Assembly: GCA_022822785.1 (NCBI GenBank) | Contig: JAJEAL010000076.1 | Location: 30,506 to 94,505 of the forward strand | Length of the DNA stretch: 64,000 bases | Direction: 5' to 3' | Source of the DNA: Candidatus Poribacteria bacterium | Lineage (GTDB): Bacteria; Poribacteria; WGA-4E; PCPOR2b | In this document: one piece after another, positions 29,222 through 48,151 of the stretch | Layout: each line of letters begins with the position of its first letter | Numbering within the stretch: the stretch's first letter is position 1 | Program-made: the position numbers and the translations under genes | Notes under the pieces: model-generated | Database searches by the model: none | The model's input: only the letters and a program-made list of their open reading frames with translations | Told to the model about the DNA's origin: nothing

Positions 29222-30613
29222 ATGGCGACTATTCTTATTGTTGACGACGAAAAAAACGCTTTGAAGATGTTATCACAAGCGTTAAAATTGGAAGGCTACA
29301 ACACCTTGACAGCCTCAAGTGGTGAGGAAGCGCTGCAGCTGTGCACATCGAAAACGGTCGATCTGGTTTTGCTAGATATCCTGATGCCTGGCGGTATAGA
29401 TGGCGTGGAAACCCTGACCCGGTTGCGGCAGATTAAACCACAGTTGAACGTTGTGATGATGTCCGCACAAAAAGAGATTGAAACGGCGGTCAAAACGATG
29501 GAGTTGGGGGCGAAACGTTACCTGACGAAACCCGCTAGCATCAGCGAGATTGTATATGCTATTGAGCCATTTCTGGAACTTTCACGTTTGTCACAGGAAA
29601 ACGAGGCGCTGAAAGAGCAGATAGGCGATCAGGACGAGATGGTTGGCGAAAGCGTTGCGATGCAACAACTTCGATCACAGATTAGTCAAGTGGCATCAAG
29701 CGATTTGGGCGTATTGATTACCGGCGAAAACGGCACCGGCAAAGAGCTAGTCGCTAATGCAATCCATCAGCAGAGCCCACGCGGTCGAAAACCGCTGATT
29801 CGGCTCAACTGTGCGGCATTGCCGGAGGAGCTCATCGAAAGCGAACTTTTCGGACATGAACGCGGGGCCTTTACCGGTGCAACCGTACGCAGACAGGGGA
29901 AATTTGAGCTTGCAGACGGGAGTGCACTGTTTCTCGACGAAATTGGCGATATGAGTTTGAAGGCGCAGGCGAAAGTACTGCGCGTGCTGGAATATGGAGA
30001 GCTAGAACGCCTCGGTGGGACGCAAACGCTGCATGTAGACGTTCGGATTATCGCTGCCACAAATAAGAACCTTGAGGCAGAAATTGAGGCTGGTCGGTTT
30101 CGTCAAGATTTGTATTATCGTCTGAGTGTGGTCCCTATCACGGTTTCCCCGCTACGCGATCGCACCGATGATCTGCCGGTGCTGGTGAAGCATTTCGTCG
30201 AACGGTTTCATAAGGATAGCGCACGCACTCCCAAGGTTATCGATCCAGCCGCGATTGAGGTCTTGCAATTATATCATTGGCCCGGCAACATACGAGAGTT
30301 AAAGAATATTGTCGAACGTCTGCTCATCATGGTCAATCAAGATGTTATCCTACCAGCTGATGCGGAGAATGTCCTGCCAATTTCACAGCGTACCGTCCAA
30401 CCTGACAAAGCTGCTCCTGCCCAAGAAAATCGGCTTCAAGCAGGAAAATCGTTGCTGGAAATGGTTGACGACGCCGAAGCAGATCTTATCCGCAATGCTC
30501 TCAATGCAAACAGTTGGAACATCAAGCGAACCGCAGAACAGTTGAAAATCGAGCGAAGCAATTTTTATAAAAAACTGGAAAAATTCAACATCAAGCGTCC
30601 AGATAACCCGTGA
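29222..30613 (+). CDS. Sigma-54-dependent response regulator (NtrC/Fis family)
   Basis: Receiver domain (ILIVDDE...DLVLLDILMPG), AAA+ sigma-54 activator domain (GENGTGKELVANAIH, ESELFGHERGAFTGA) and a C-terminal Fis-type helix-turn-helix. Confidence 0.85.
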   Translation: MATILIVDDEKNALKMLSQALKLEGYNTLTASSGEEALQLCTSKTVDLVLLDILMPGGIDGVETLTRLRQIKPQLNVVMMSAQKEIETAVKTMELGAKRYLTKPASISEIVYAIEPFLELSRLSQENEALKEQIGDQDEMVGESVAMQQLRSQISQVASSDLGVLITGENGTGKELVANAIHQQSPRGRKPLIRLNCAALPEELIESELFGHERGAFTGATVRRQGKFELADGSALFLDEIGDMSLKAQAKVLRVLEYGELERLGGTQTLHVDVRIIAATNKNLEAEIEAGRFRQDLYYRLSVVPITVSPLRDRTDDLPVLVKHFVERFHKDSARTPKVIDPAAIEVLQLYHWPGNIRELKNIVERLLIMVNQDVILPADAENVLPISQRTVQPDKAAPAQENRLQAGKSLLEMVDDAEADLIRNALNANSWNIKRTAEQLKIERSNFYKKLEKFNIKRPDNP

Positions 30614-30678
30614 GATACTCGTTTGAAGCTGAAAGCGATGACCACGGAGGGACTATCGCAGTCATAAAAGGAGAATAG

Positions 30679-31482
30679 ATGCCAATGATAGCGACGTCCA
30701 TTCTCATCTTTGCGCTTGGATTGTCAATCGGTAGCTTTTTGAATGTGTGTATCTACCGCATTCCCCAGGGACTCTCTATTCATGCCCCACGTCGCTCATT
30801 TTGCCCCGCATGTCAAACAACGATTCGCTTCTACGAGAATATCCCTGTTCTAAGCTACCTCCTCCTGAGAGGACGCTGCCGACACTGTAACACGGAAATC
30901 TCGAAAGTTTATCCGCTGGTCGAACTGATGACAGGTGTCCTGTTTCTGCTCTCGTTGTATCGGTTCGGATTAACACTCGCACTTTTGCACAGTTGTCTGC
31001 TCATCAGCTTGTTGATACCGATTGCTTGGATTGATGCCCGATGGTCTCTCATTCCAAACACCATCATCCTTGTCGGGTTGATTACCGGTGCCGCCGTAAT
31101 ACTTCTTATTACGTTCACTCACCACAGTCTAGGCTACCTGATTGAACACCTAATCGGGGCAGCAGCCGGGGGCGCCTCAATGGCTTTAATTGCGGCTGCG
31201 GGGACGTTCCTCTTTGGTAAGCAGGCGATGGGCGGCGGAGACATCAAATTGATGATCCTAATCGGACTGTTTCTGGGAGGATGGCCCCATCTGTTGGTCG
31301 TAATTATGGTTTCCGCTCTCACCGGCTCAATCGTTGGATTGTCCCTTATCGCGTGCGGAAAAAAGAGTGGCGGCAGCAGTCCGATACCTTACGGTCCTTT
31401 TCTCGTAATTGGTGCACTACTAGATCTATTTTGGGGAGATGGAATTTGGGACTGGTATCTAAAGCTCATTGGCTGGCAATAG
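30679..31482 (+). CDS. pilD: Prepilin peptidase (type IV leader peptidase, A24 family)
   Basis: Zinc-ribbon-like CPACQTTIRFYENIPVLSYLLLRGRCRHC, plus polytopic membrane segments with conserved Asp. Confidence 0.8.
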   Translation: MPMIATSILIFALGLSIGSFLNVCIYRIPQGLSIHAPRRSFCPACQTTIRFYENIPVLSYLLLRGRCRHCNTEISKVYPLVELMTGVLFLLSLYRFGLTLALLHSCLLISLLIPIAWIDARWSLIPNTIILVGLITGAAVILLITFTHHSLGYLIEHLIGAAAGGASMALIAAAGTFLFGKQAMGGGDIKLMILIGLFLGGWPHLLVVIMVSALTGSIVGLSLIACGKKSGGSSPIPYGPFLVIGALLDLFWGDGIWDWYLKLIGWQ

Positions 31483-37545: not shown

Positions 37546-38041
37546 CTCCTATCGGTTATTTATATTCATCTGTTTCATTCAGACAGAAGCACAGCCTGTG
37601 AAATTACATTGAAAAAATGATATACAAGATTTTTCCATAGATTTATCGCATACATTCTGTAGGTGATTTGACAGTGAATTTTGACGGAATTAAGGATTGA
37701 AAGTTTAGACTGAAGATAGGACGCCATATTGGGAAATCCATTAATCCGACAGTATCATTGATGAAAATATCACCATTTCCAGAGTGGATGAAGACGACGA
37801 TTACACATTGGCAAGAGATGAGAGTTCCTGTTTTTACTTGCGCCCCCTCATAAATGCTGCTACACTTAATTTCGTGCAGCTAGATTCCGGGCAGGCACAG
37901 CCTAAAAAAACAGATATTGGCTCATGTAAAACGAAGACTTCGTTTGATTAACCTTCCATTTACATCCCCTCATCCCGAGAGGCAAATCGCGCAGAGACAT
38001 TGTTTTTTCGCTTTTGCGTTTCACATCTCATGGGTAAAACG

Positions 38042-39721
38042 ATGAAACACATTTTACTGTTTATCGTATTGTTTACTGCGGTCTCGCTTATTACGGGTCC
38101 GTCGTTATATGCTCAATCTGTAGATGCAGCAACTTGGTGGCTGATTGTGAATCCCGACACTGATGGCGGTTCTCCAAATAGTCTCGACGCCCTAGTCAGC
38201 CTATTGACAGAATACGGAAAAATCCCGGCGAACCATATCCGCCGAATCGACGGCGACGCGTGCACCCGCGACGGTATCAAAGCAAGCTTGGACGACCTCA
38301 GGACTGAAATAGGGCAAGGCGATCGGCTCATCTTCTACTTTCGCGGCTTTGTCACGAAACCGAGAAGATCGAATTCAATCTTCTTTCTGACATACGGAGC
38401 GACATCCGAAAATTTGGCAGATGCGCTTGAAGATCGCCAACTGAATCGTTGGTTGCGCGAAGCGTCCCAAAATACAGCCGTTGTCATTCTTGACAGCTAT
38501 ACAAGAGATTCTAATTTAATGGCTTACTACGGCAATCGCGGCATGCTTGGGACTGCAGCACTTATATCAATTCAGCGTCCAGCCTTAAATGCTGAGGATC
38601 TGTTTGGACAAACATTACTGGAAGTGTTGAAGACCAATGAAGTTGATCTCGATGACAATCGGCAACTCTCGATTGAGGAGCTTCATATACACCTCACGAC
38701 AAATTTAGATGAACGGACCTTGCGGCTTACAGAAGGGATCTTACTGCCGATGGGAAGGATTGAGAGACCAATCCTAAAATTAAGTCCAATGCTCACAATT
38801 GTGACAATGCCTGATGGAGCATCCGTTGTCCTTGATGGGCAACAAGAGATAGGACTAACGCCGCAACGCCTTGCCGATAACCTCGAACGGAGAACTTATA
38901 ATATAGAAGTCAGAAAACCGGGATATCTCATTCCCCCTGCCCGCTCCGTAGATATTGAACTTGTTCAAGGGGAATCGATTAATCTCTCATGGGACTTGGC
39001 CTCCATCGCTGTTCACGGGAGCATCACAGTCTCCGATGGTGTGTCCCTTGAAGGAACGATGGTGTGGATAGATGGTACGGCATACGAACAGAATCCGCTA
39101 TCCGTGCAAGCAGACGGTCGCTACCAACTTTCTGCCAATATACGTAACGCTACATCTGAAGCGGATACAAAAGTGCTGGAGCCGGGTAAAATGTACACGT
39201 TACGCGCCGAAAGCGATGAACTCCACCATGCGGCGGAAAATTTCACACTCGCTCCCCACGAATCCGTCGAACGAAATTTGGTTCTTACTAAAAAAACGTG
39301 GTTTGAAGTCGCTCAAATGCAGTTTAATCGAAAAGCGTACGAGGAAGCAATTGCTGCATTTCAAAACGGTATTGAGGAGACTATCGAATTTCCGCCGATG
39401 TCCCCAGAATTTACCAAATTACTCTTCGATTCTTTTTCGGAGGTAGTAAATAAAGTAAATGTCCAAAACATCGCTTACGTTGTCACAACCGCAAAGCTAG
39501 CGGATAGACTTGATCTTCGAGAAGCAGCCAAAGTGTACTGGGGGCAGGTAAGATTGCAGGCGACCGAAGGGTCCACAGCCCACGAACTTGCAACAAAACG
39601 GTTACGGGAGCTTAATTTTGGGCGTCGGCTGATCAATATGGGTGTCTTGGTTTTATTTATTCTCGTGTTAATTTCTGGTGGGTATGCCCTCCGTAGGGTA
39701 CTTCAGCGGTCCAAAACGTAA
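38042..39721 (+). CDS. Membrane-anchored protein with a degenerate caspase-like (C14) domain, a PEGA domain and C-terminal TPR-like region plus transmembrane helix
   Basis: Signal peptide MKHILLFIVLFTAVSLITGPSLYAQ. The caspase-like core DRLIFYFRGF...AVVILDSYT has the His and Cys positions substituted. The PEGA match is LTIVTMPDGASVVLDGQQEIGLTPQRL. The C-terminal transmembrane segment is LINMGVLVLFILVLISGGYAL. Confidence 0.5.
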   Translation: MKHILLFIVLFTAVSLITGPSLYAQSVDAATWWLIVNPDTDGGSPNSLDALVSLLTEYGKIPANHIRRIDGDACTRDGIKASLDDLRTEIGQGDRLIFYFRGFVTKPRRSNSIFFLTYGATSENLADALEDRQLNRWLREASQNTAVVILDSYTRDSNLMAYYGNRGMLGTAALISIQRPALNAEDLFGQTLLEVLKTNEVDLDDNRQLSIEELHIHLTTNLDERTLRLTEGILLPMGRIERPILKLSPMLTIVTMPDGASVVLDGQQEIGLTPQRLADNLERRTYNIEVRKPGYLIPPARSVDIELVQGESINLSWDLASIAVHGSITVSDGVSLEGTMVWIDGTAYEQNPLSVQADGRYQLSANIRNATSEADTKVLEPGKMYTLRAESDELHHAAENFTLAPHESVERNLVLTKKTWFEVAQMQFNRKAYEEAIAAFQNGIEETIEFPPMSPEFTKLLFDSFSEVVNKVNVQNIAYVVTTAKLADRLDLREAAKVYWGQVRLQATEGSTAHELATKRLRELNFGRRLINMGVLVLFILVLISGGYALRRVLQRSKT

Positions 39722-40743
39722 TGTCGCTTGGATTCCAAGGCAGATTTGGCTCTGTCCAAAGCGGCAAAGGGGATAAATTGATGTTCCTTTTCGGCTTTAA
39801 GATTTTACGACGTGCACAGTACCGGGGTCTGCTTAATCAGCAAAAGAAGCTAAATCACCAGCTCCATGAACTTGGCAAAAAGCTCAAAACTCTCACCACG
39901 GAGAAGGGTGAACTTGAGACACGTCATCAAGAGGAAAAATCAGCACTCAATCAGCAATTGGACGGCCTCCGCCAAACTGTCCAGGATTATGAACAGCTGC
40001 AACGCGGCATCGCAGCGGACATGGAGAGTGCGACAAGAGAATTTGGATTGAGCCGAACACAGATTGAAACACTCTGGGTGGATAGACTAGATTTAATTGA
40101 GCTATATATTGAGAAACTATATTCCCTCGCAAAGGACTTCTCCCGCGCCAACCGGGACATGAGAAAAAATCGTGGTCTGTTTTTATTACTGATAGATCGA
40201 CGAAACATGGCTGAGAACAACTTCTCAGAATTCCACGACACTCAAATAGAACACTTATCGGAGAAGCAATATCAAGGTGTCAATCAGCTTCCCCATATCT
40301 TCTCAGCCAAAATCGATGATATATTTAATTATATGGGGGAAAAGGTTCTCCTAAAGGATAAAAGCGGCGAAATCACCGGGCATGAAGAGCGGGATGGCGC
40401 CATACTTATCGACCTCAGTGGGGTTGCCTTCCGGTCTCGTATCATGGTAGAGGGGGTACGGACCTATCGTGTATTCGATAAGGTGGAACGGTTACACAAA
40501 GGAAGTGCCAGACATAATGCTGCAATCTACGCTTCAGCACTCGATGAAGTTATGGTGTCAATCGTGATTAGTGAGGAGACGAGTGAGGTGACACTTTTCC
40601 GGGATGGGCGCTTTATAGAGAGCTACGACCCGTACACAGATCAAGGCACACTGCGTGAAGAGAAGGTGGTGCCCATGAAGCGTAAAGAATCTGTGGATGA
40701 ATCCCCAGATCAAGTAATCCAACAAGAAATAACGGAAACTTGA
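39721..40743 (+). CDS. DAC (diadenylate cyclase, DisA_N)-domain protein with an N-terminal coiled coil
   Basis: Matches to the DAC motifs: GLFLLLID (compare GALIVI), RDGAILID (compare HDGAVII), and GSARHNAA...VSIVISEETSEVTLFRDG (compare GTRHRAA...IVVSEETG). The TAATG overlap with the upstream gene suggests translational coupling. Confidence 0.55.
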   Translation: MSLGFQGRFGSVQSGKGDKLMFLFGFKILRRAQYRGLLNQQKKLNHQLHELGKKLKTLTTEKGELETRHQEEKSALNQQLDGLRQTVQDYEQLQRGIAADMESATREFGLSRTQIETLWVDRLDLIELYIEKLYSLAKDFSRANRDMRKNRGLFLLLIDRRNMAENNFSEFHDTQIEHLSEKQYQGVNQLPHIFSAKIDDIFNYMGEKVLLKDKSGEITGHEERDGAILIDLSGVAFRSRIMVEGVRTYRVFDKVERLHKGSARHNAAIYASALDEVMVSIVISEETSEVTLFRDGRFIESYDPYTDQGTLREEKVVPMKRKESVDESPDQVIQQEITET

Positions 40744-40925: not shown

Positions 40926-41122
40926 GGTTGGGTCACGCACGGATTTAACCGTAGCCACCACTCATCACCATTTTTAGAGGACTCTTGCAACTTTAGTTGC
41001 TAGCTGGAACACTGTGTGCTTCCTCTAGCGGTTCAACAGTATCCAAAAAGGCTTGAAAACAGTGGTAGTCAATGATATAATAGCTATTTGGAAGTCTGTG
41101 TGAAACACTGAAAGGTGGGACG

Positions 41123-44100
41123 ATGATACATTGGGCAGCACGCTTATTTTGCAAAATATCGGTCATCATTGTAGCCATTACATGGACAGTTTCTCCCACA
41201 TTTGCGGGCGAGCGTGACGAATATGTTTTTGCTTACAAACTCTTCCAAGAGGGCGCCTATTTCATCGCCAAAGATGCGCTCAAAGTATTTATCCAAAACT
41301 ACCCGCAGAGCACAGATGCCGATGACGCCCGTTTCCTTATCGGGGAATGTGCGCTGCAACTCAAGGAATATGACGAGGCAATCCAGCACTATAAACAGCT
41401 CCAAATTGACTATCCGGATAGCCCACTGCGTTTAGATGCAGTTCGGGGTACAGCGATGGCTTGGTTCCATCAGGGCAGATACGAAGAAGCCATTGAGGCT
41501 TACGAAAAGGTTGTCGAAAGCTCCGATGATTCCCTTGTCATCTCCCATAGCCTTTATCTGATTGGGGAGTCTTATGACAACCTAGGACTCTACCAGAAAT
41601 CCGGCGAATATTACACACAAATCCTTACTAAATATCCGGAGTCAGCAGAAGTACCAGATGCTGTGTACGCGAACGGCTGGAGCCTTTATAGGCTTAAAAA
41701 ATACGGTGAGGCATACAACACACTAACAGACTTTATCAAAAAATATCCCACCCACTATGCCATCCCAGAAGCTTCCTATCGCGCAGCCGAATCCCTGTTC
41801 AACCTCGGCGATTGGGCAAAGGCGCAACTGGCATACCAGCAGGTCATTGACACCTACCAGAAAGACGAAGCACATCAGCAATTCGCTATAGATGCGCGAT
41901 TCAGGCTCGGCGAGTGTTATTTTCAGCAACAGTTGATGGAAGAGGCCAAAAATGCTTTTGAGCTTTTGCTACGTGAACACGGAAACTCGCCCATTGTCGC
42001 GGAGGCACAATATTGGATTGCCGAAGTCTTATTGGAAGAAAAGAAATATCCGGAAGCAATTCATGAGTATCAGAAAGTCATCACTCTTTATCCCCAGAGC
42101 GAAGTCGTCGATGATGCCCAGTACGGTATTGCGATGGCACATTTTTTAAAAGGCGACTACACCAAAGCCGGGAGCGAATTCAAGAACGTCGCAGAGAATC
42201 GGCGTTCTGGACTCGCTGATGCAGCCCGTTTTCGCCTAGCCGAGTGTTTCCGCTTGCAACGAGAGTTTAATTCAGCCATCCTCCACTATAAAAAAGTGCG
42301 TGCGTTATCAGCATATACTGATGACGCGCTCTATGGAAGAGCCACCAGTGCATTTGAATTGCGAGACTATTCACAGACTATTGATGTGCTGAATGCGTTG
42401 TTGAGTGCACAACCCTCCAGCCCCCTCAGACCTTACGTTCTCTACCAGCTTGGACTTGCCTATTTTAATCACCAAGCGTACCAAGAAAGCTCCCAAGCTT
42501 TTGATAGCTTCTTGTCCGAAAACCGCGATACCAACTTAGCCACCGCTCCCACTGATGAGGCGTTATTTTGGAAAGCGCGCGCCCGGTTTGAGCTAGGAGA
42601 TTATTCAACAACCCTTCAGACCTGCGAGGAGCTGCTTCGACGTTTTCCGAATAGCCACTTACGCTACCGGGCAGAATTTTTTATCGCAGAAAGTACCTAT
42701 TGGCGTGAGCAAACGGCGGAAGCTTATCAGTCAGCACGCGAAAAATATCAAGCTTTGTTAGAGAAACAATCACAGATTGCTCCCGATACCCTTGGAGCTG
42801 AGTGGGCGGAAAAGTGTCGCTACGGCATTGGGTGGACTCACTTCTCTGAAGCAATGCTCTCAAAAGACAGTACCGCCCAGCAAAAACATCATCAAGCAGC
42901 GGTATCCGCTTGGCGGGAAGTGCTTGCGAACCACCCAAACGGCACGCTTGCGGACAAAACGCAGTACCATATCGGTATCGCCTATGTCAATCTCAAACAG
43001 TACGATGATGGAATCCGGGCGTTCAGACAGGTGCTTTCCGGCTACCCCGGCAGCAATTGGAGTGACAATGCACGGTACCAGACGGGATGGGTGCTTTACA
43101 AACAGGAACGGTATCCCGAAGCAATCGCGGCACTCAATGAAATGCTCACGGTGCATCCCGGGTCGCAGCTTGTCCCGAGAGCGATTTTTGGCATCGCAAA
43201 TGCTTACTTCAAGCAAGGAAAATACGCCCAAGCGATTCGCGAATACCAACGGGTGGTTGACAAGTACCCTAACCCGATTCGCGAGGCGGGCGCTGAAAAG
43301 GCAATCGATTTGCGACCAGAAGCGCAATACTACATCGGAGAAAGCTTTTTGAACCTTCAGAACTATGCCGAGGCCATCGCCGCTTACGAAAAGGTTCCTC
43401 AGCATCACCCCAAAAGCGAGTGGGCAGATGACGCACAGTATGGCATTGCAACGGCTTACGAAAATCTGGGTCAAAAAGAGAAAGCGATACAGGCGTATCG
43501 GACCTTGACGCAGAAATACCCCAACCGTGAACTTGCGCCAGATGTTCAGCTCCAAATTGGTCGGTTCTACTATAATGAAAAAGACTATAAACGGGCAATC
43601 GCCGAGTTCCAAAATGCAATTAATCAGTATCCGAATACCCCCTCGGCGTGGCTAGCCCAGTACAACATCGGCAAATGCTACATTGCGCTAGGGTCATATC
43701 GCCAAGCAATTGGCGCATTTGAACGCGTTGACGTTAGGAGTGAATTTGCAGCGACCGCCGCGTACGAAATCGGTTACGCTTGGTACGATCAAAATAATCC
43801 GAGCCGAAATCTAGGTAACGCGGTGGAGGCGCTTCTTGCCGTTCCTGATAAATATCCGCAAAGCGTTGATGTTCCGCGTGCCCTGTTGGTTGCCGGTGAA
43901 TGCTACAAAGAATTGGTCGAATTGGACAAAGCGGTTGCGATATATCGTCGCCTCCTGAACGATTATCCGGCCTCGGAGCAAGCACAGTGGGCGCAATTGG
44001 CATTGGGGGATACCTACCGTGCCCAGCAAAAATTCGAGCAAGCCGCCGCGGCTTATGATGTGATTCGCGAAAAGGGAACAGAACGATACCCTGTTGATAT

Positions 44101-44434
44101 TGTAATTGATGGCCTGCTTCGTCTAGCAGAAACGCAAGCACTGATGCAGAAATATAAAGACGCTGGCACGACTTATTTGCGTATCCGCTACCTGTACAAG
44201 GACCACGATCCGTACAGGGCATTTCAAGCGACTGTCTATGCCGCCGATGCCTTTGCTAAGGCTGGTGAGGCTTTAGTCCAGCCAGCGTACACCCACCAAG
44301 CAAAGGATGAATATGAGAACGCAATTGAGTTTTACGAATTGAGTGTTGAACAGCTACAGGAGGCAGGAGAACGGAAGAGATGGGATGCACTATACGATTA
44401 TGCGAAGAACCAGCTTCAACAACTCTTTAAGTGA
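41123..44434 (+). CDS. Large secreted tetratricopeptide-repeat (TPR) protein
   Basis: Signal peptide, followed by more than 20 TPR-like 34-residue repeats with W/Y/A/P spacing. Confidence 0.75.
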   Translation: MIHWAARLFCKISVIIVAITWTVSPTFAGERDEYVFAYKLFQEGAYFIAKDALKVFIQNYPQSTDADDARFLIGECALQLKEYDEAIQHYKQLQIDYPDSPLRLDAVRGTAMAWFHQGRYEEAIEAYEKVVESSDDSLVISHSLYLIGESYDNLGLYQKSGEYYTQILTKYPESAEVPDAVYANGWSLYRLKKYGEAYNTLTDFIKKYPTHYAIPEASYRAAESLFNLGDWAKAQLAYQQVIDTYQKDEAHQQFAIDARFRLGECYFQQQLMEEAKNAFELLLREHGNSPIVAEAQYWIAEVLLEEKKYPEAIHEYQKVITLYPQSEVVDDAQYGIAMAHFLKGDYTKAGSEFKNVAENRRSGLADAARFRLAECFRLQREFNSAILHYKKVRALSAYTDDALYGRATSAFELRDYSQTIDVLNALLSAQPSSPLRPYVLYQLGLAYFNHQAYQESSQAFDSFLSENRDTNLATAPTDEALFWKARARFELGDYSTTLQTCEELLRRFPNSHLRYRAEFFIAESTYWREQTAEAYQSAREKYQALLEKQSQIAPDTLGAEWAEKCRYGIGWTHFSEAMLSKDSTAQQKHHQAAVSAWREVLANHPNGTLADKTQYHIGIAYVNLKQYDDGIRAFRQVLSGYPGSNWSDNARYQTGWVLYKQERYPEAIAALNEMLTVHPGSQLVPRAIFGIANAYFKQGKYAQAIREYQRVVDKYPNPIREAGAEKAIDLRPEAQYYIGESFLNLQNYAEAIAAYEKVPQHHPKSEWADDAQYGIATAYENLGQKEKAIQAYRTLTQKYPNRELAPDVQLQIGRFYYNEKDYKRAIAEFQNAINQYPNTPSAWLAQYNIGKCYIALGSYRQAIGAFERVDVRSEFAATAAYEIGYAWYDQNNPSRNLGNAVEALLAVPDKYPQSVDVPRALLVAGECYKELVELDKAVAIYRRLLNDYPASEQAQWAQLALGDTYRAQQKFEQAAAAYDVIREKGTERYPVDIVIDGLLRLAETQALMQKYKDAGTTYLRIRYLYKDHDPYRAFQATVYAADAFAKAGEALVQPAYTHQAKDEYENAIEFYELSVEQLQEAGERKRWDALYDYAKNQLQQLFK

Positions 44435-44487
44435 ATCCGGGTGAAAGGATGGCCGAAAAAAGGGCAGGGGGATTGGAAAAGCATACC

Positions 44488-46308
44488 ATGCGATACGTCC
44501 GATATAATACCTTTCACGTTTTGCGTTTTGTGTTTTACGTCCTACTCAGTTTATTGCCACTCTACGCCCAAACGCAGGAGCCCTCGGAAGAGCAGTTGGA
44601 ATCAGACTTGCCGGATGAAGTCATCGCAGAAGTCATCGATACGACCCGAATCGAACTTGAGCCCCGCAGTCGTTTTAGCGATCCACTGGTGCCCGAGCTG
44701 ATTCACGCTATCGCTCTATACCCCAAGGAACGACTATGGAATTTACCGCCCACCACAACCCCCCAAAAGGCTGTCAGGCCTAGTCCCGCTCCACCGAAGA
44801 ACTATAGATTTCACCTTGCTGCACAAGCAAGCCGACCAGAATCGCTATTCTATAAAGTCCTTTTCGCGGGGCGTGCAGAGGGAACACACGGTTTTGTCCA
44901 TTTGAACCGGCAGCAGCTTGGTAATGCACGGACAGCGGGGCGGGGAGATTATCACCTTGACGGGATCCGCGGCAACGTAACCCACCAATATCAGGAGTTG
45001 AGCGAAATTTCCTTTGATGTTGGCTTAAATCTCAAAGCGCTTGAGTGGTTGCCTGCAACAGCAACCACCCCCAACCCTCAGAAGGATTTGCTGCTTTTTC
45101 GTTCCGATTTGAATTGGCAGCAGCAGCTTTCCGAAACAACGTGGTCCACCTTGAACCTCGATACGACACTGGTTCGTATCAATCACGACGAATCTGAACA
45201 GGATGCAGCGACGGATGCGCGATTCAACTTCGACATGGCGCTTTCGTGGCCCTTCTTGAACCCAATTCACGCCGGGGGCGATGTGGAGTATTTTTCCGCC
45301 GGAGATGCTGGGGAGATCATCGCTCGACTGTATGCCCGCGACGAGTTTTCGCCATTTGGACCATTCGTCTCTAGTATAGGTGTAGAAGCAGTCAGTCTCC
45401 GCGAACCTGATGATACCAGCGAAGACATAATGGACTCGCAGCTAAGCGTGACAGACGCGGCTCAACAGACTGGCACCGAAACTAGCGAAGATATAGCGGA
45501 CACACAGTCCGACATAGTAGATGTAGACCGACAGAATAGCATCGACACTAGCGAAGATACAGTCAGCTTGTATTTAAACCCGTCTCTTGCATTGACTACC
45601 CATATTAACGAACACTGGCTAATCCGGCTTGAAGGACTTCGAACAATCGCGCGGCATCGATTGGCGCCACTTTACTTTGACACAGATTACATCAGCCTCA
45701 CCCCAAGCCTTCAACCGGAGAAAGCTTGGAATGAACGGCTTACACTAAAGTATCATCGCGGCGCGAAATTTGAAATGAATCTATCTGGCTTTGCAAAGCA
45801 GATAGACAACCTCGTTGTTTTGATTCCCCAAACGGAATCTCCCAAAGAGAATAGTGTGCAATTGACCAACAATGTCGCAACAGAACTTGCATGGGCTCCA
45901 ACAAACATTGATGCGTCAATCTATGGAGGACAGCTGCTAATGTCCGCTCGCATTCCCGACCGCCTTGACCTTCGGTTTCAGTACACACATGAGATTCATG
46001 TACCCAACATGGGGGATTACATCCTTTATAGGCCCACAGATCGCATCGACCTAGACATCGTATATCATCTCCCATCAGGGTTCCATGCCGCACTTCAGGC
46101 AGAATTGCAGGGACCTAGGTATATTGATACAATGACTGATGAAATGCTGCAAGGTTATCTGCTGTTGAAACCCAAGTTGAGTAAAACAATTGGAAACTAT
46201 ATTGACGCCTTCGTTGGGGGGGCGTTTGCAGTCGGAGAGTATCGTTTACTAGAGATGTATGCGCTTTCGCAGCGTAACTTCGATTTTGGGATTGAGTTAA
46301 AATTTTAG
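44488..46308 (+). CDS. Putative outer-membrane beta-barrel protein with internal D-T-S-E-D tandem repeats
   Basis: Signal peptide MRYVRYNTFHVLRFVFYVLLSLLPLYAQ, a C-terminal ...GIELKF ending in Phe, and three TSED(I) repeats. Confidence 0.4.
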   Translation: MRYVRYNTFHVLRFVFYVLLSLLPLYAQTQEPSEEQLESDLPDEVIAEVIDTTRIELEPRSRFSDPLVPELIHAIALYPKERLWNLPPTTTPQKAVRPSPAPPKNYRFHLAAQASRPESLFYKVLFAGRAEGTHGFVHLNRQQLGNARTAGRGDYHLDGIRGNVTHQYQELSEISFDVGLNLKALEWLPATATTPNPQKDLLLFRSDLNWQQQLSETTWSTLNLDTTLVRINHDESEQDAATDARFNFDMALSWPFLNPIHAGGDVEYFSAGDAGEIIARLYARDEFSPFGPFVSSIGVEAVSLREPDDTSEDIMDSQLSVTDAAQQTGTETSEDIADTQSDIVDVDRQNSIDTSEDTVSLYLNPSLALTTHINEHWLIRLEGLRTIARHRLAPLYFDTDYISLTPSLQPEKAWNERLTLKYHRGAKFEMNLSGFAKQIDNLVVLIPQTESPKENSVQLTNNVATELAWAPTNIDASIYGGQLLMSARIPDRLDLRFQYTHEIHVPNMGDYILYRPTDRIDLDIVYHLPSGFHAALQAELQGPRYIDTMTDEMLQGYLLLKPKLSKTIGNYIDAFVGGAFAVGEYRLLEMYALSQRNFDFGIELKF

Positions 46309-46382
46309 CGAATACTATCCGGGGGATACAGGTATGGACACTCCTGACCTGAATTGGACGTTGATTAAAGCGAGGAGCTATC

Positions 46383-47102
46383 ATGGGTAATCTGATTGAA
46401 ATGATTGTTTCAGGATTAGAACAGTTGAGCGGAGGCGGGATCCTGCTGATTCCCTTAATTGGTTGTTCTATCTGTGCACACGCGATCATTATGGAACGGA
46501 TTTATCATTTGCGGCGTGAGCGAGTCATCCCCTCACAGTTTGTGACCCGTATCATCTACCACGAACTTGTGCAAGGCAATCCCAACGTTGCGATCCAGAT
46601 GTGCGAGCAGCGACCCGGACCGCTGACAAATGTCCTCCGCGCCGGGATAGAACGCAGAAATGCCGATGAGGACACGCTCAAACGGGTGGTCCGTTTATCT
46701 ATCAACGGCGAAAAGCCGAAATTGACGCGATATCTGCATATTTTGGGACTACTGTCCGCTGTAGCGATATACACAGGTCTACTCGGCACATTTCTCGGCA
46801 TGATTATCTCATTTGGCAATCTTTATGAATTAGGCGGACAGGTAGGGCAGTCGAGAGATATTGCTGGTGGCATCTCACAAGCCTTAATCACAACCGCTGC
46901 TGGATTAATGGTTGCACTACCAACATATGTCGCGTATTATTATTTTAATAGTAAGGCACAGCTCTACTTAACCGAACTGGAAAGACACGGCATGTCCCTC
47001 GTTCGGTTTCTTACCGCCGAAGAACATAAACTGTTTCAGGACGAGCTTGAAGATATTCAGAGTTTGCCCCATAGGAGCCCTACTGATGAACACTCAAGGT
47101 AA
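46383..47102 (+). CDS. exbB: MotA/TolQ/ExbB-family proton-channel protein
   Basis: Three transmembrane helices and the conserved core GLLGTFLGMI...ALITTAAGLMVALP. Confidence 0.8.
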   Translation: MGNLIEMIVSGLEQLSGGGILLIPLIGCSICAHAIIMERIYHLRRERVIPSQFVTRIIYHELVQGNPNVAIQMCEQRPGPLTNVLRAGIERRNADEDTLKRVVRLSINGEKPKLTRYLHILGLLSAVAIYTGLLGTFLGMIISFGNLYELGGQVGQSRDIAGGISQALITTAAGLMVALPTYVAYYYFNSKAQLYLTELERHGMSLVRFLTAEEHKLFQDELEDIQSLPHRSPTDEHSR

Positions 47103-47982
47103 AACCAAGCTGAGCGCCTTTATCGGGATTGCAATTATCGAACATGTGGTTTTGATTCTAGTGTTAGCTATAGCGGCTTATACGCCCCATGTTCCAAAGC
47201 CTAGGGACACAGCTATAACTGTGGATATTCTGATAAATGAACCGGAGCAGAAGCGTGTTGAGACAGAAATCCCTATCGCTATCCCCCCAACTCGGCAGCC
47301 TGAAATGCCTACCGAATTGCCGCCGATCCAATCAGCAAATAATGTCCAGCGATATCTTAACCCTGGAGGTCCGTCAGGAGGTTTACCCGCTCGGGCCCTC
47401 GCACGAGATACCAATCAAGACCCGAATCGCTTGGCGTTAGGGGCAGCCTCTTCACAAGGACGAAGCCAAACTCTACTCGACGATTTAGAGGTAACCAATG
47501 CAAGGATCAGGGAAAAACCACTCGTTGACGAGGAAGGCTATCAAGGTGCTTTAGCGCGGCCCGGCGTACGAGATACGGAGCGAATGAAACATAGAGGAGA
47601 CCGTGGGCGCAGCTTAATTCGAAACGTGTCTACAGGAAATGTAACCCAGACTGGACAAAGCAGTGTTACCAATGGTGTTGGCTTTGAGTTTGAAATCTCC
47701 GGCGAAGTCAGTGGACGCGGCTATCTCTTGGGGAAACCCATTCAGACAGAAGGCAGGCAGGGCGGAGGCGTCCAAATCAGCTTCAAGGTGAGACCGGACG
47801 GCACCGTGTACGATGTGCGCGTGAAGCCCGGTTTCTTAACGACGGTAGGTGAAGTCCGACTCAAAGAGCAAGCCAAAAGATATGTCGAAAGAATCCGATT
47901 CAACACTTTGCCCCAAAACGCGCCACAAGTCGATCAGTCCGGAGAAATCTTTATTAACTTCACAACACAGCTCAGTCGCTGA
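47086..47982 (+). CDS. TonB/TolA-like energy-transducer protein
   Basis: N-terminal transmembrane helix, a Pro-rich linker and a C-terminal TonB_C-like domain (VQISFKVRPDGTVYDVRV...). It overlaps the exbB stop by 17 nt. Confidence 0.6.
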   Translation: MNTQGKTKLSAFIGIAIIEHVVLILVLAIAAYTPHVPKPRDTAITVDILINEPEQKRVETEIPIAIPPTRQPEMPTELPPIQSANNVQRYLNPGGPSGGLPARALARDTNQDPNRLALGAASSQGRSQTLLDDLEVTNARIREKPLVDEEGYQGALARPGVRDTERMKHRGDRGRSLIRNVSTGNVTQTGQSSVTNGVGFEFEISGEVSGRGYLLGKPIQTEGRQGGGVQISFKVRPDGTVYDVRVKPGFLTTVGEVRLKEQAKRYVERIRFNTLPQNAPQVDQSGEIFINFTTQLSR

Positions 47983-48048
47983 TCTCCTTGCGTATCATCG
48001 AGCGACGCGAGCGATATTAATCATTCTTTAGGAAATTCAAAATGGTTG

Positions 48049-48077
48049 TTGACAATTTTTGGGAAAACGATTATAAT
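48049..48077 (+). promoter_or_regulatory. Consensus sigma-70 promoter (TTGACA, 17-nt spacer, TATAAT)
   Basis: Exact consensus -35 and -10 hexamers with a 17-nt spacer, about 75 nt upstream of the TPR lipoprotein gene. Confidence 0.6.
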
Positions 48078-48151
48078 GGAATGGTAAAAAGAGGATTGCA
48101 TCTGAAAATCCTGCGAACTTACTAATCTAGTAAAGCTTAGGAGGAATAATC

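What the first reader, a model, noticed from the sequence alone, without database searches (positions are those of the whole stretch)
38042..40743. Apparently dead caspase-like/PEGA membrane protein translationally coupled to a DAC-domain protein
The first protein has a caspase-like core (DRLIFYFRGF...VVILDSYT) with the His and Cys catalytic positions replaced, followed by a clear PEGA domain and a C-terminal transmembrane helix. Its stop overlaps (TAATG) the start of a protein whose C-terminal half matches diadenylate cyclase motifs (RDGAILID, GSARHNAA, VISEETSEV). That second protein has a coiled-coil N-terminus in place of the CdaA transmembrane helices. A possibly inactive caspase-fold envelope sensor paired with a c-di-AMP synthase-like enzyme would be an unusual signalling pair. 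The RHR-to-RHN change also raises the question of whether the cyclase itself is active.
Basis: partly seen in the sequence, partly recalled or inferred. Interest (0 to 1): 0.55.

Follow-up and report, generated by a model that had tools for sequence, protein, structure and literature searches.

The report
Dead caspase-like protein beside divergent diadenylate cyclase
Uncultivated Poribacteria usually keep two genes side by side, one for a membrane-anchored periplasmic protein built on a catalytically dead caspase fold and one for a cytoplasmic coiled-coil protein with a very divergent diadenylate-cyclase domain; they may link the cell envelope to c-di-AMP signalling, but that is not demonstrated.

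Summary
Both genes are real and strongly conserved, and are found only in Candidatus Poribacteria.

ORF1 (38042-39721) has a signal peptide, a caspase/paracaspase-fold domain, a PEGA domain, a second beta-sandwich, a helical domain and a C-terminal TM helix. Foldseek matches the fold domain to MALT1 at E 7e-7. Its His and Cys positions are F103 and Y153, and they vary across homologs.

An exhaustive HMMER search of 1.84 billion representatives found only 22 hits. Seven clusters (E <1e-30) form the core family. The nearest outsiders are small Pfam-DAC proteins.

In 39 of 49 Poribacteria species, ORF1 lies immediately upstream of ORF2 even where the flanking genes differ. ORF2 also occurs without ORF1 in 10 species, and ORF1 occurs without ORF2 in one locus.

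The TAATG overlap exists, but the conserved ORF2 start is 60 nt downstream at 39781, with its own Shine-Dalgarno sequence. Translational coupling is therefore not supported. Enzyme activity and any ORF1-ORF2 signalling remain inference. I rate this a new variant of known kinds, of moderate interest.

The parts
38042..39721 (+). ORF1, 559 aa: a membrane-anchored, periplasm-facing pseudo-caspase/PEGA protein. The public gene call P0121 starts 12 nt upstream, at 38030.
   Evidence: ORF list. Homologs in >120 clusters, all Poribacteria. Alignment A3 places the start at MK(H/Q)IL.
38042..38116 (+). Signal peptide (res 1-25, ending ..SLYAQ)
   Evidence: Kyte-Doolittle 19-residue windows above 1.6 at res 1-6. 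AF2 helix 2-17 followed by a disordered stretch. Whether it is cleaved is inferred.
38123..38746 (+). Caspase/hemoglobinase-fold domain (res ~28-235) lacking the catalytic dyad. The His position is F103 (nt 38348-38350) and the Cys position is Y153 (nt 38498-38500).
   Evidence: Foldseek PDB: MALT1 7e-7, Yca1, legumain, CED-3, caspases, GSU0716. NCBIfam NF047832 E 3.8e-7, res 46-224. The motifs sit at the ends of strands 95-105 and 146-153. In diverse homologs these positions are F/Q/R/H/G and Y/T/I/F.
38645..38680 (+). Invariant EF-hand-like loop DLDDNRQLSIEE (res 202-213), a candidate Ca2+ site
   Evidence: D202, D204, N206, R207 and E213 are invariant in A3. The pattern is kept in homologs at 30% identity. 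Metal binding is inferred from the motif only.
38774..38986 (+). PEGA beta-sandwich domain (res ~245-315)
   Evidence: Pfam PF08308 E 2.9e-7, 30.7 bits against a cut-off of 20.8.
38987..39289 (+). Second beta-rich domain (res ~316-416), weakly CarboxypepD_reg-like
   Evidence: Pfam PF13620 E 0.0056, below cut-off. Precomputed PF13620 hits on many homologs. The AF2 model is of low confidence here.
39290..39616 (+). Juxtamembrane helical, TPR-like domain (res 417-525). It is the most conserved part of ORF1.
   Evidence: AF2 helices 434-524. Weak TPR_1/TPR_2 hits. Highest mean pairwise identity among diverse homologs, 0.43.
39617..39718 (+). C-terminal transmembrane helix (res ~526-550) and a ~9-residue basic cytoplasmic tail
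   Evidence: Hydropathy windows 524-536 above 1.6. It is the least conserved segment, 0.22 identity.
39766..39773 (+). Shine-Dalgarno-like AAAGGGGA, 7 nt before the conserved ORF2 start
   Evidence: Sequence. The same motif precedes the start in L004-L023.
39781..40743 (+). ORF2, 320 aa from the conserved start: a cytoplasmic coiled-coil protein with a divergent DAC domain. An upstream in-frame ATG at 39721 gives the 340-aa form used by the public gene call P0001.
   Evidence: No hydrophobic segment.
39781..40053 (+). N-terminal conserved MF(F)FKIL motif followed by a long helix (res 1-~91)
40054..40665 (+). DAC-fold domain (res ~92-295). Motifs: GLFLLLID 40174-40197; DGA 40393-40401; Met222 at the CdaA-Tyr position; RHN 40510-40518; SEET 40570-40581.

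Best explanation
Shown:
- The region is a two-gene cassette specific to Candidatus Poribacteria.
- ORF1 is exported and held in the inner membrane by a C-terminal helix. It carries a caspase-fold domain that cannot be a Cys protease, followed by PEGA, a second beta-sandwich and a conserved helical domain.
- ORF2 is cytoplasmic. It has a long helical N-terminus followed by a complete but very divergent diadenylate-cyclase (DAC) domain. The domain keeps DGA, the first basic residue plus His of RHR, and SEET. It carries Asn in place of the second Arg.

Inferred, as the most likely mechanism:
- ORF2 oligomerises through its helices, still binds ATP, and makes c-di-AMP or a close relative.
- ORF2 is the core component, because it is present across Poribacteria with or without ORF1.
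- ORF1 is an accessory envelope-side modulator encoded in the same transcription unit. It would report a periplasmic or cell-wall state (peptide ligand, or Ca2+ at its EF-hand-like loop) to the cyclase.
- This is functionally analogous to the extracytoplasmic regulator CdaR/YbbR acting on CdaA in Firmicutes.
For: Folds:
- ORF1's Foldseek hits are caspase-clan proteins, and it matches an NCBIfam caspase model at E 3.8e-7.

Sequence link to DAC:
- The family profile reaches Pfam-DAC proteins at E 1e-5 to 4e-4 in a library of 1.84e9 proteins.
- 67 of 80 members hit PF02457 at E<=0.01.

Active-site conservation:
- D205, G206, H245, S264 and E269 are invariant. A207, N246, E265 and E266 are >=90% conserved across 42-85% identity. 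This argues for a maintained nucleotide pocket.
- DGA is followed by three hydrophobic residues, as described for active DACs (PMC6741144).
- The Tyr-to-Met change is not disqualifying, because that Tyr is absent from DisA and CdaS (PMC6368335).

Genomic linkage:
- ORF1 lies directly upstream on the same strand in 39 of 49 species-level genomes. ORF1 identity falls to ~30%. In 16 loci neither window-type flank is kept.
- No terminator-like site on the + strand was found between or after the genes.

Precedent and context:
- The extracytoplasmic YbbR/CdaR, encoded in the dacA operon, binds CdaA (PMC6368335).
- Surrounding genes are envelope systems: TolC/HlyD/ABC, TPR, an OM barrel, ExbB and TonB.
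Against: - RHR is R/K-H-N in every member. RHR-to-AAA abolishes ATP binding and activity in M. tuberculosis DacA (PMC3328451).
- The window protein is below Pfam's DAC cut-off (23.8 vs 27 bits).
- ORF2 has no membrane segment. ORF1's TM helix and 9-residue tail are its least conserved part. No obvious contact surface across the membrane is therefore conserved.
- ORF2 occurs without ORF1 in 10 of 49 species. An ORF1 homolog is followed directly by the TPR/barrel genes with no ORF2 in L053.
- The spacer varies from -17 to 707 nt.
- There is no experimental data. Poribacteria are uncultivated.
- Whether these genomes hold a canonical CdaA or DisA could not be checked.
Confidence: 0.4

Rival explanations
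1. ORF2 is a pseudo-cyclase. Its DAC fold has lost catalysis through RHR-to-RHN and serves as a nucleotide-binding or c-di-AMP-binding or scaffolding coiled-coil protein. It may be part of an envelope-associated structure together with ORF1.
For: - Asn replaces the second Arg of RHR in all members, including distant tandem paralogs. The RHR motif is essential in Mtb DacA (PMC3328451).
- His before DGA is Arg, and the stacking Tyr is Met.
- The family is extremely divergent from canonical DACs (PDB profile E 0.005).
- A clearly degenerate paralog (RGA / RYD) exists in tandem with intact-motif copies in L056. The lineage therefore tolerates non-catalytic copies.
Against: - The remaining catalytic and ligand residues (DGA Asp, R/K-H, SEET) are invariant or nearly so. 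That would be unexpected for a purely structural protein.
- Several of the nearest Pfam-DAC relatives also have RH[L/T/I]. The third position is therefore not universally Arg in the wider family.
- The published RHR mutant changed all three residues at once. It says nothing specific about the second Arg.
Confidence: 0.25
2. The two genes are neighbours without a direct functional link. ORF1 belongs with the downstream TPR / OM-barrel / ExbB / TonB envelope system. ORF2 is an independent cytoplasmic DAC-family protein that happens to sit between them in many Poribacteria.
For: - L053 has the ORF1 homolog directly followed by the TPR (63% id) and barrel genes, with no ORF2.
- ORF1-(ORF2)-TPR-barrel is seen in the window clade and in the distant L028/L032/L033.
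- ORF2 stands alone or next to TolC/HlyD, response regulators or an L,D-transpeptidase in 10 species.
- The intergenic distance is variable, and ORF2 has its own SD.
- The TPR gene has its own strong promoter-like site at 41053-41081.
Against: - In 16 species the ORF1-ORF2 pair persists, same strand and adjacent, with neither the TolC nor the TPR/barrel neighbours. The pair therefore moves as a unit more often than ORF1 stays with TPR.
- The genes overlap or nearly abut (-17 to +4 nt) in L024, L028, L032, L033 and L048.
Confidence: 0.3
3. The pair is an anti-phage defence module of the caspase-like effector plus cyclic-nucleotide synthase type (CBASS-like, or type III CRISPR/Craspase-like).
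For: Only a superficial resemblance: a caspase-fold protein sits next to a cyclic-dinucleotide-synthase fold. The NCBIfam hit is to a conflict-system-associated caspase model.
Against: - There are no PADLOC matches beyond a coiled-coil artefact.
- The caspase dyad is absent, so it cannot act as a protease effector.
- ORF1 is exported to the periplasm.
- The genes are near-universal, vertically conserved and syntenic in one phylum, rather than patchy and mobile.
- Composition is unremarkable.
Confidence: 0.02

Closest known systems
CdaA/DacA with its extracytoplasmic regulator CdaR/YbbR (Firmicutes dacA-ybbR-glmM operon)
   Different: - ORF2 has no TM helices, and CdaR contacts CdaA through its TM region.
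- ORF1 is built of pseudo-caspase, PEGA and helical domains, not YbbR domains.
- The gene order is reversed, and no glmM is present.
- RHR is RHN.
- DAC-domain sequence identity in the fold-search alignments is only about 10-22%.
CdaS/DacB (sporulation-specific DAC; B. cereus structure 2fb5)
   Different: - ORF2's helical region is ~120 residues (one ~85-residue helix plus a second), not the short two-helix domain.
- The NCBIfam CdaS model scores 13.9 bits against a cut-off of 225.
- ORF2 has RHN rather than RHR.
- ORF2 is restricted to Poribacteria.
DisA (DAC + helical spine + HhH)
   Different: In ORF2 the DAC domain is C-terminal rather than N-terminal. There is no HhH DNA-binding domain. 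RHR is intact in DisA.
Bacterial pseudo-orthocaspases and the MALT1 paracaspase
   Same: Caspase-fold p20-like domain. As in pseudo-orthocaspases, the His-Cys dyad is replaced (Tyr/Ser there; PMC6426788). As in MALT1, the caspase domain is followed by an Ig-like domain.
   Different: - The replacements here are Phe/Tyr and are not even conserved within the family.
- The protein is exported and C-terminally anchored.
- There is no Pfam Peptidase_C14 hit at E<=1.
- The added PEGA, beta-sandwich and TPR-like domains and the EF-hand-like loop are absent from those families.

Membership tests
Diadenylate cyclase (DAC/DisA_N, PF02457) | Mixed alpha/beta DAC fold | tested here: met
Diadenylate cyclase (DAC/DisA_N, PF02457) | Pfam model score at or above the gathering threshold (27 bits) | tested here: not met
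   The window protein scores 23.8-24.0 bits and covers only profile positions 53-118. 67 of 80 family members hit at E<=0.01, and some clusters carry precomputed PF02457.
Diadenylate cyclase (DAC/DisA_N, PF02457) | DGA motif followed by hydrophobic residues | tested here: met
   RDGAILID. D205 and G206 are invariant, and A207 is >=90% conserved.
Diadenylate cyclase (DAC/DisA_N, PF02457) | RHR motif | tested here: not met
   R/K-H-N (or R/K-H-A in one subclade) in all members. It aligns to RHR of DacM and of B. subtilis and S. pneumoniae CdaA.
Diadenylate cyclase (DAC/DisA_N, PF02457) | Conserved Ser-Glu-Glu(-Thr) strand after the RHR helix | tested here: met
   VISEETSEV aligns to VSEETGG of CdaA. 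S264 is invariant, and E265 and E266 are >=90% conserved.
Diadenylate cyclase (DAC/DisA_N, PF02457) | Synthesis of c-di-AMP from ATP | not testable with these tools
   This needs an enzyme assay.
CdaA/DacA class | Three N-terminal TM helices; operon with cdaR/ybbR and glmM | tested here: not met
   ORF2 has no hydrophobic segment (maximum KD19 1.3). Its neighbours are ORF1 and TPR genes.
CdaS/DacB class | NCBIfam NF038328 at cut-off 225 bits | tested here: not met
   13.9 bits, E 0.031.
Peptidase C14 / caspase-like (clan CD) | Caspase-hemoglobinase fold | tested here: met
   Foldseek: MALT1 7e-7; the 3v4o caspase domain with target-normalised TM-score 0.63; metacaspases, legumain and caspases. 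The N-terminal domain has pLDDT about 63-92.
Peptidase C14 / caspase-like (clan CD) | Catalytic His-Cys dyad after strands 3 and 4 | tested here: not met
   FRGF and DSYT sit at the ends of strands 95-105 and 146-153. These positions vary (F/Q/R/H/G and Y/T/I/F) in homologs. The assignment rests on motif and strand register, not on a residue-level structural superposition.
Peptidase C14 / caspase-like (clan CD) | Curated sequence-model score | tested here: not met
   No Pfam Peptidase_C14 hit at E<=1. NF047832 scores 29.8 bits against a cut-off of 140. No PDB sequence hit, even with a profile.
PEGA domain (PF08308) | Pfam score above the gathering threshold | tested here: met
   30.7 bits against 20.8, res 250-295.
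Known anti-phage defence systems (PADLOC) | Match to any defence-system protein model | tested here: not met
   ORF1 has none. ORF2 has only a weak coiled-coil match to LmuB (E 0.0088).

The most novel reading that the evidence does not exclude
The ORF2 family is an active, previously unclassified class of cyclic-dinucleotide synthase (coiled-coil DAC with an R/K-H-N site). Its output is set from the periplasm by a dead caspase-fold receptor, ORF1, possibly Ca2+- or peptide-binding. That would be the first case of a pseudo-protease controlling cyclic-dinucleotide synthesis, and a trans-envelope signalling route specific to sponge-associated and free-living Poribacteria.
Probability: 0.2. Interest if true: 0.7.

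Novelty: new variant of a known kind. Interest (0 to 1): 0.45.

Why it matters
c-di-AMP controls osmotic and cell-wall homeostasis, and how its cyclases are regulated is known for only a few classes (CdaA-CdaR-GlmM, DisA-RadA, CdaS).

This family would add two things. The first is a phylum-restricted, highly divergent DAC architecture with a naturally altered RHR motif. That is useful for asking what the second Arg actually does. The second is a candidate extracytoplasmic partner of a new type, a pseudo-caspase.

It also gives a concrete, testable gene pair in Poribacteria, an uncultivated sponge-symbiont phylum whose signalling is essentially unknown. If ORF2 proves inactive, it would instead be an example of a conserved pseudo-cyclase.

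Tried and rejected
- Translational coupling via TAATG is rejected. The conserved start is M21 with its own SD, and the spacer is variable.
- A defence-system reading is rejected.
- PDB sequence searches for ORF1, with a single sequence and with a profile, found nothing relevant.
- Rfam found no RNA family in the window, including no c-di-AMP riboswitch.
- A metagenome-contig scan with the ORF1 alignment matched 291 patterns, but none was confirmed. The reverse co-occurrence test therefore rests on three look-ups.
- The afdb50 fold library was not available.
- Galperin 2023, 'All DACs in a row', the key census of DAC architectures, and He et al. 2020 are not held. I could not check whether this architecture is already catalogued there.
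- No paper in the library mentions Poribacteria together with c-di-AMP.
Full report
**Observation**

The window holds two same-strand ORFs at 38042-39721 and 39721-40743. The TAA of the first shares its last A with an ATG. Both have many conserved homologs, all labelled Candidatus Poribacteria where a name exists:
- ORF2 has 144 hits at 48-100% identity in the listed set.
- ORF1 has 320 hits, of which the listed 120 are at 52-100% identity.

Most ORF2 homologs are 315-325 aa and begin at MF(F)FKIL, which is M21 of the 340-aa reading. That ATG (39781) is preceded at 7 nt by AAAGGGGA. The same motif is conserved in relatives. The stop-to-start spacer ranges from -17 to 707 nt and is about 190 nt in the closest relatives. 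The TAATG overlap is therefore real in the sequence, but it is unlikely to be the functional junction.

**ORF1**

Pfam finds PEGA above threshold (res 250-295). It also gives weak CarboxypepD_reg and TPR signals. NCBIfam gives a sub-threshold but significant match to a caspase model (NF047832, E 3.8e-7, res 46-224).

An AF2 model built on 46 homologs is confident for res ~30-225 and poor for 319-449. Foldseek against the PDB returns only caspase-clan proteins at the top: MALT1 (7e-7), metacaspases Yca1 and C. glabrata, legumain, CED-3, caspase-3 and -11, and GSU0716.

The motifs at the ends of the third and fourth strands are FRGF (100-103) and DSYT (151-154), where caspases carry SGHG and D-x-C. 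Seven homologs spanning ~30-55% identity were aligned:
- The His position is F/Q/R/Q/H/F/G.
- The Cys position is Y/T/I/F/Y/Y/Y.

The family therefore has no conserved dyad and is a pseudo-protease. Pseudo-orthocaspases are a known precedent (PMC6426788).

Hydropathy shows an N-terminal signal-like segment and one C-terminal TM helix (526-554). About nine basic residues follow it. The bulk of the protein is therefore periplasmic.

Conservation varies by region:
- The most conserved part is the juxtamembrane helical domain, at 0.43 mean identity.
- The least conserved is the TM helix plus tail, at 0.22.

An invariant loop, D-x-[DN]-[DE]-N-R-x-[LIV]-[ST]-[LIV]-x-E (res 202-213), has the spacing of an EF-hand Ca2+ loop. 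That reading rests on the motif only.

**ORF2**

Pfam DAC matches only the C-terminal half of the model, just below threshold (23.8 bits). PDB sequence searches reach DacM at E 0.005-0.07.

The AF2 model (80 homologs, pLDDT 77) has two parts:
- an 85-residue helix followed by a second helix at 92-123;
- an alpha/beta domain at 133-291.

An exhaustive HMMER search used the DAC-domain profile against 1.84 billion representatives. It found only 22 hits at E<=1e-3:
- Seven clusters score below E 1e-30 and make up the core family. Most of the next hits are fragments of it.
- P0247 is a degenerate relative.
- P0251 is more distant.
- P0254-P0260 are small soluble proteins at E 9e-6 to 4.5e-4. Six of these seven reach Pfam DAC above threshold.

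This gives a statistically sound sequence link to the DAC family. It also shows how isolated the Poribacteria family is.

**Active site**

Alignments to CdaA and DacM and family conservation show the following:
- DGA plus three hydrophobic residues is kept.
- SEET is kept.
- The first basic residue and the His of RHR are kept.
- The second Arg is Asn in essentially all members (Ala in one subclade). This includes tandem paralogs in a distant lineage.
- The adenine-stacking Tyr of CdaA is an invariant Met. That Tyr is absent from active DisA and CdaS (PMC6368335), so the change is not diagnostic.

RHR-to-AAA abolishes ATP binding and activity in Mtb DacA (PMC3328451). No single-residue data for the second Arg were found. 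Several of the nearest Pfam-DAC relatives also carry RH[L/T/I]. Activity is therefore plausible but open.

**Linkage**

A scan of GTDB species representatives gave 49 Poribacteria loci encoding ORF2.

ORF1 is present immediately upstream on the same strand in 39 of them, at 29-82% identity:
- 20 loci keep the window's flanks (TolC/HlyD/ABC upstream; TPR and barrel downstream).
- 3 loci keep only the TPR and barrel genes.
- 16 loci keep neither. In these the pair has moved as a unit.
- The genes overlap or abut in L024, L028, L032, L033 and L048.

Ten species have ORF2 without ORF1:
- Pelagic lineages place it divergently next to AMIN-TolC/HlyD.
- Others place it next to response regulators (RR-HD_5, RR-SpoIIE), an LVIVD propeller or a TPR-LysM-YkuD protein.

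Conversely, an ORF1 homolog on a 2.7-Mb contig (L053) is followed directly by the TPR (63% id) and barrel genes, with no ORF2. Adjacency is therefore frequent and survives rearrangement, but neither gene strictly requires the other as a neighbour.

**Context in the window**

- Upstream, on the minus strand, lies an ABC-ATPase/HlyD/TolC efflux operon.
- Downstream lie a 1103-aa TPR protein, a TonB-dependent-receptor-like barrel, ExbB/TolQ, a TonB_C protein and another TPR protein.
- A near-consensus sigma-70-like promoter sits at 41053-41081, before the TPR gene. No + strand terminator-like site lies between ORF1 and ORF2.
- There are no Rfam families and no defence-system matches.

**Interpretation**

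The anatomy is well established. ORF1 is a periplasmic, membrane-anchored pseudo-caspase/PEGA protein. ORF2 is a cytoplasmic coiled-coil protein with a divergent DAC domain. The two are usually co-located in Poribacteria.

The best mechanistic reading, at confidence about 0.4, has two parts:
- ORF2 is a still-functional nucleotide-binding and probably c-di-AMP-forming enzyme.
- ORF1 is an accessory envelope-side modulator, by analogy with CdaR/YbbR and CdaA (PMC6368335).

Several points weigh against it:
- the RHN site;
- the lack of any membrane segment in ORF2;
- the poor conservation of ORF1's TM helix and tail;
- the cases where the two genes are uncoupled.

The rivals are a pseudo-cyclase (0.25), mere neighbourhood with ORF1 belonging to the Ton/TPR envelope cluster (0.3), and a defence system (0.02).

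**Novelty**

DAC domains, pseudo-caspases and PEGA domains are all known. Public annotation already labels some members 'diadenylate cyclase' or 'PEGA domain-containing protein'. The following appear to be new:
- the architecture (long coiled coil plus a DAC domain with R/K-H-N);
- the restriction to one phylum;
- the recurrent pairing with a periplasmic pseudo-caspase.

I could not consult the 2023 census of DAC architectures. I rate this a new variant of a known kind, with interest 0.45.

Noticed in passing
window 38645-38680 (ORF1 res 202-213): An invariant DLDDNRQLSIEE loop with EF-hand-like spacing (D1, D3, N5, hydrophobic 8, E12) is conserved even in ORF1 homologs at 30% identity. It is a candidate periplasmic Ca2+ site in the pseudo-caspase domain.
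   Followed up: partly
window 41053-49618: Downstream is a Ton/Tol-like envelope cluster: a 1103-aa TPR protein, a TonB-dependent-receptor-like barrel, ExbB/TolQ (46383-47102), a TonB_C protein (47047-47982) and another TPR protein. A near-consensus promoter-like site (TTGAAA-17-TATAAT with TG) lies at 41053-41081. The barrel gene's start overlaps the stop of the TPR gene (44431-44434).
   Followed up: partly
L056:6001-8410: A divergent lineage carries three tandem short paralogs of the ORF2 family. The first and third keep DGA/RHN/SEE. The middle one (P0247) is degenerate (RGA, RYD, no SEE). This suggests mixed assemblies of catalytic and non-catalytic copies.
   Followed up: partly
L053:4001-9665: An ORF1 homolog (52% id) is followed directly by the giant TPR (63% id) and barrel genes, with no ORF2 in between. 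This is the only ORF1-without-adjacent-ORF2 case seen among the three ORF1 homolog loci looked up (L053-L055).
   Followed up: yes
L047:1027-2715: The most divergent ORF1 homolog keeps a His at the caspase His position (FRGH). It has a Cys one residue before the canonical Cys position (DCYT). It may lie closer to an active ancestor.
   Followed up: no
L001:4525-7302, L041:2794-5376: In pelagic Poribacteria the TolC homolog next to ORF2 carries a long N-terminal extension with internally repeated AMIN-like segments. Part of it is masked by a run of N in L001.
   Followed up: no
L037:4068-7140, L043:1670-3326, L046:6062-7661: In lineages lacking ORF1, ORF2 is flanked, in convergent orientation, by response-regulator fusions: RR-HD_5 (HD-GYP-like) with RR-GAF-PAS-HisKA, or RR-SpoIIE with a stand-alone RR. 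This hints at a link to two-component or nucleotide-turnover signalling.
   Followed up: partly
window 39721-39780: The public gene call (P0001, 340 aa) uses the upstream ATG that overlaps ORF1's stop. The 20-residue extension is shared only by a few close relatives. It coincides with the conserved Shine-Dalgarno region, so it is probably a start-site mis-call.
   Followed up: yes
window 29222-31482: A sigma-54-dependent response regulator (RR-AAA-HTH_8) lies next to a prepilin peptidase (A24), a few kb upstream of the efflux operon.
   Followed up: no
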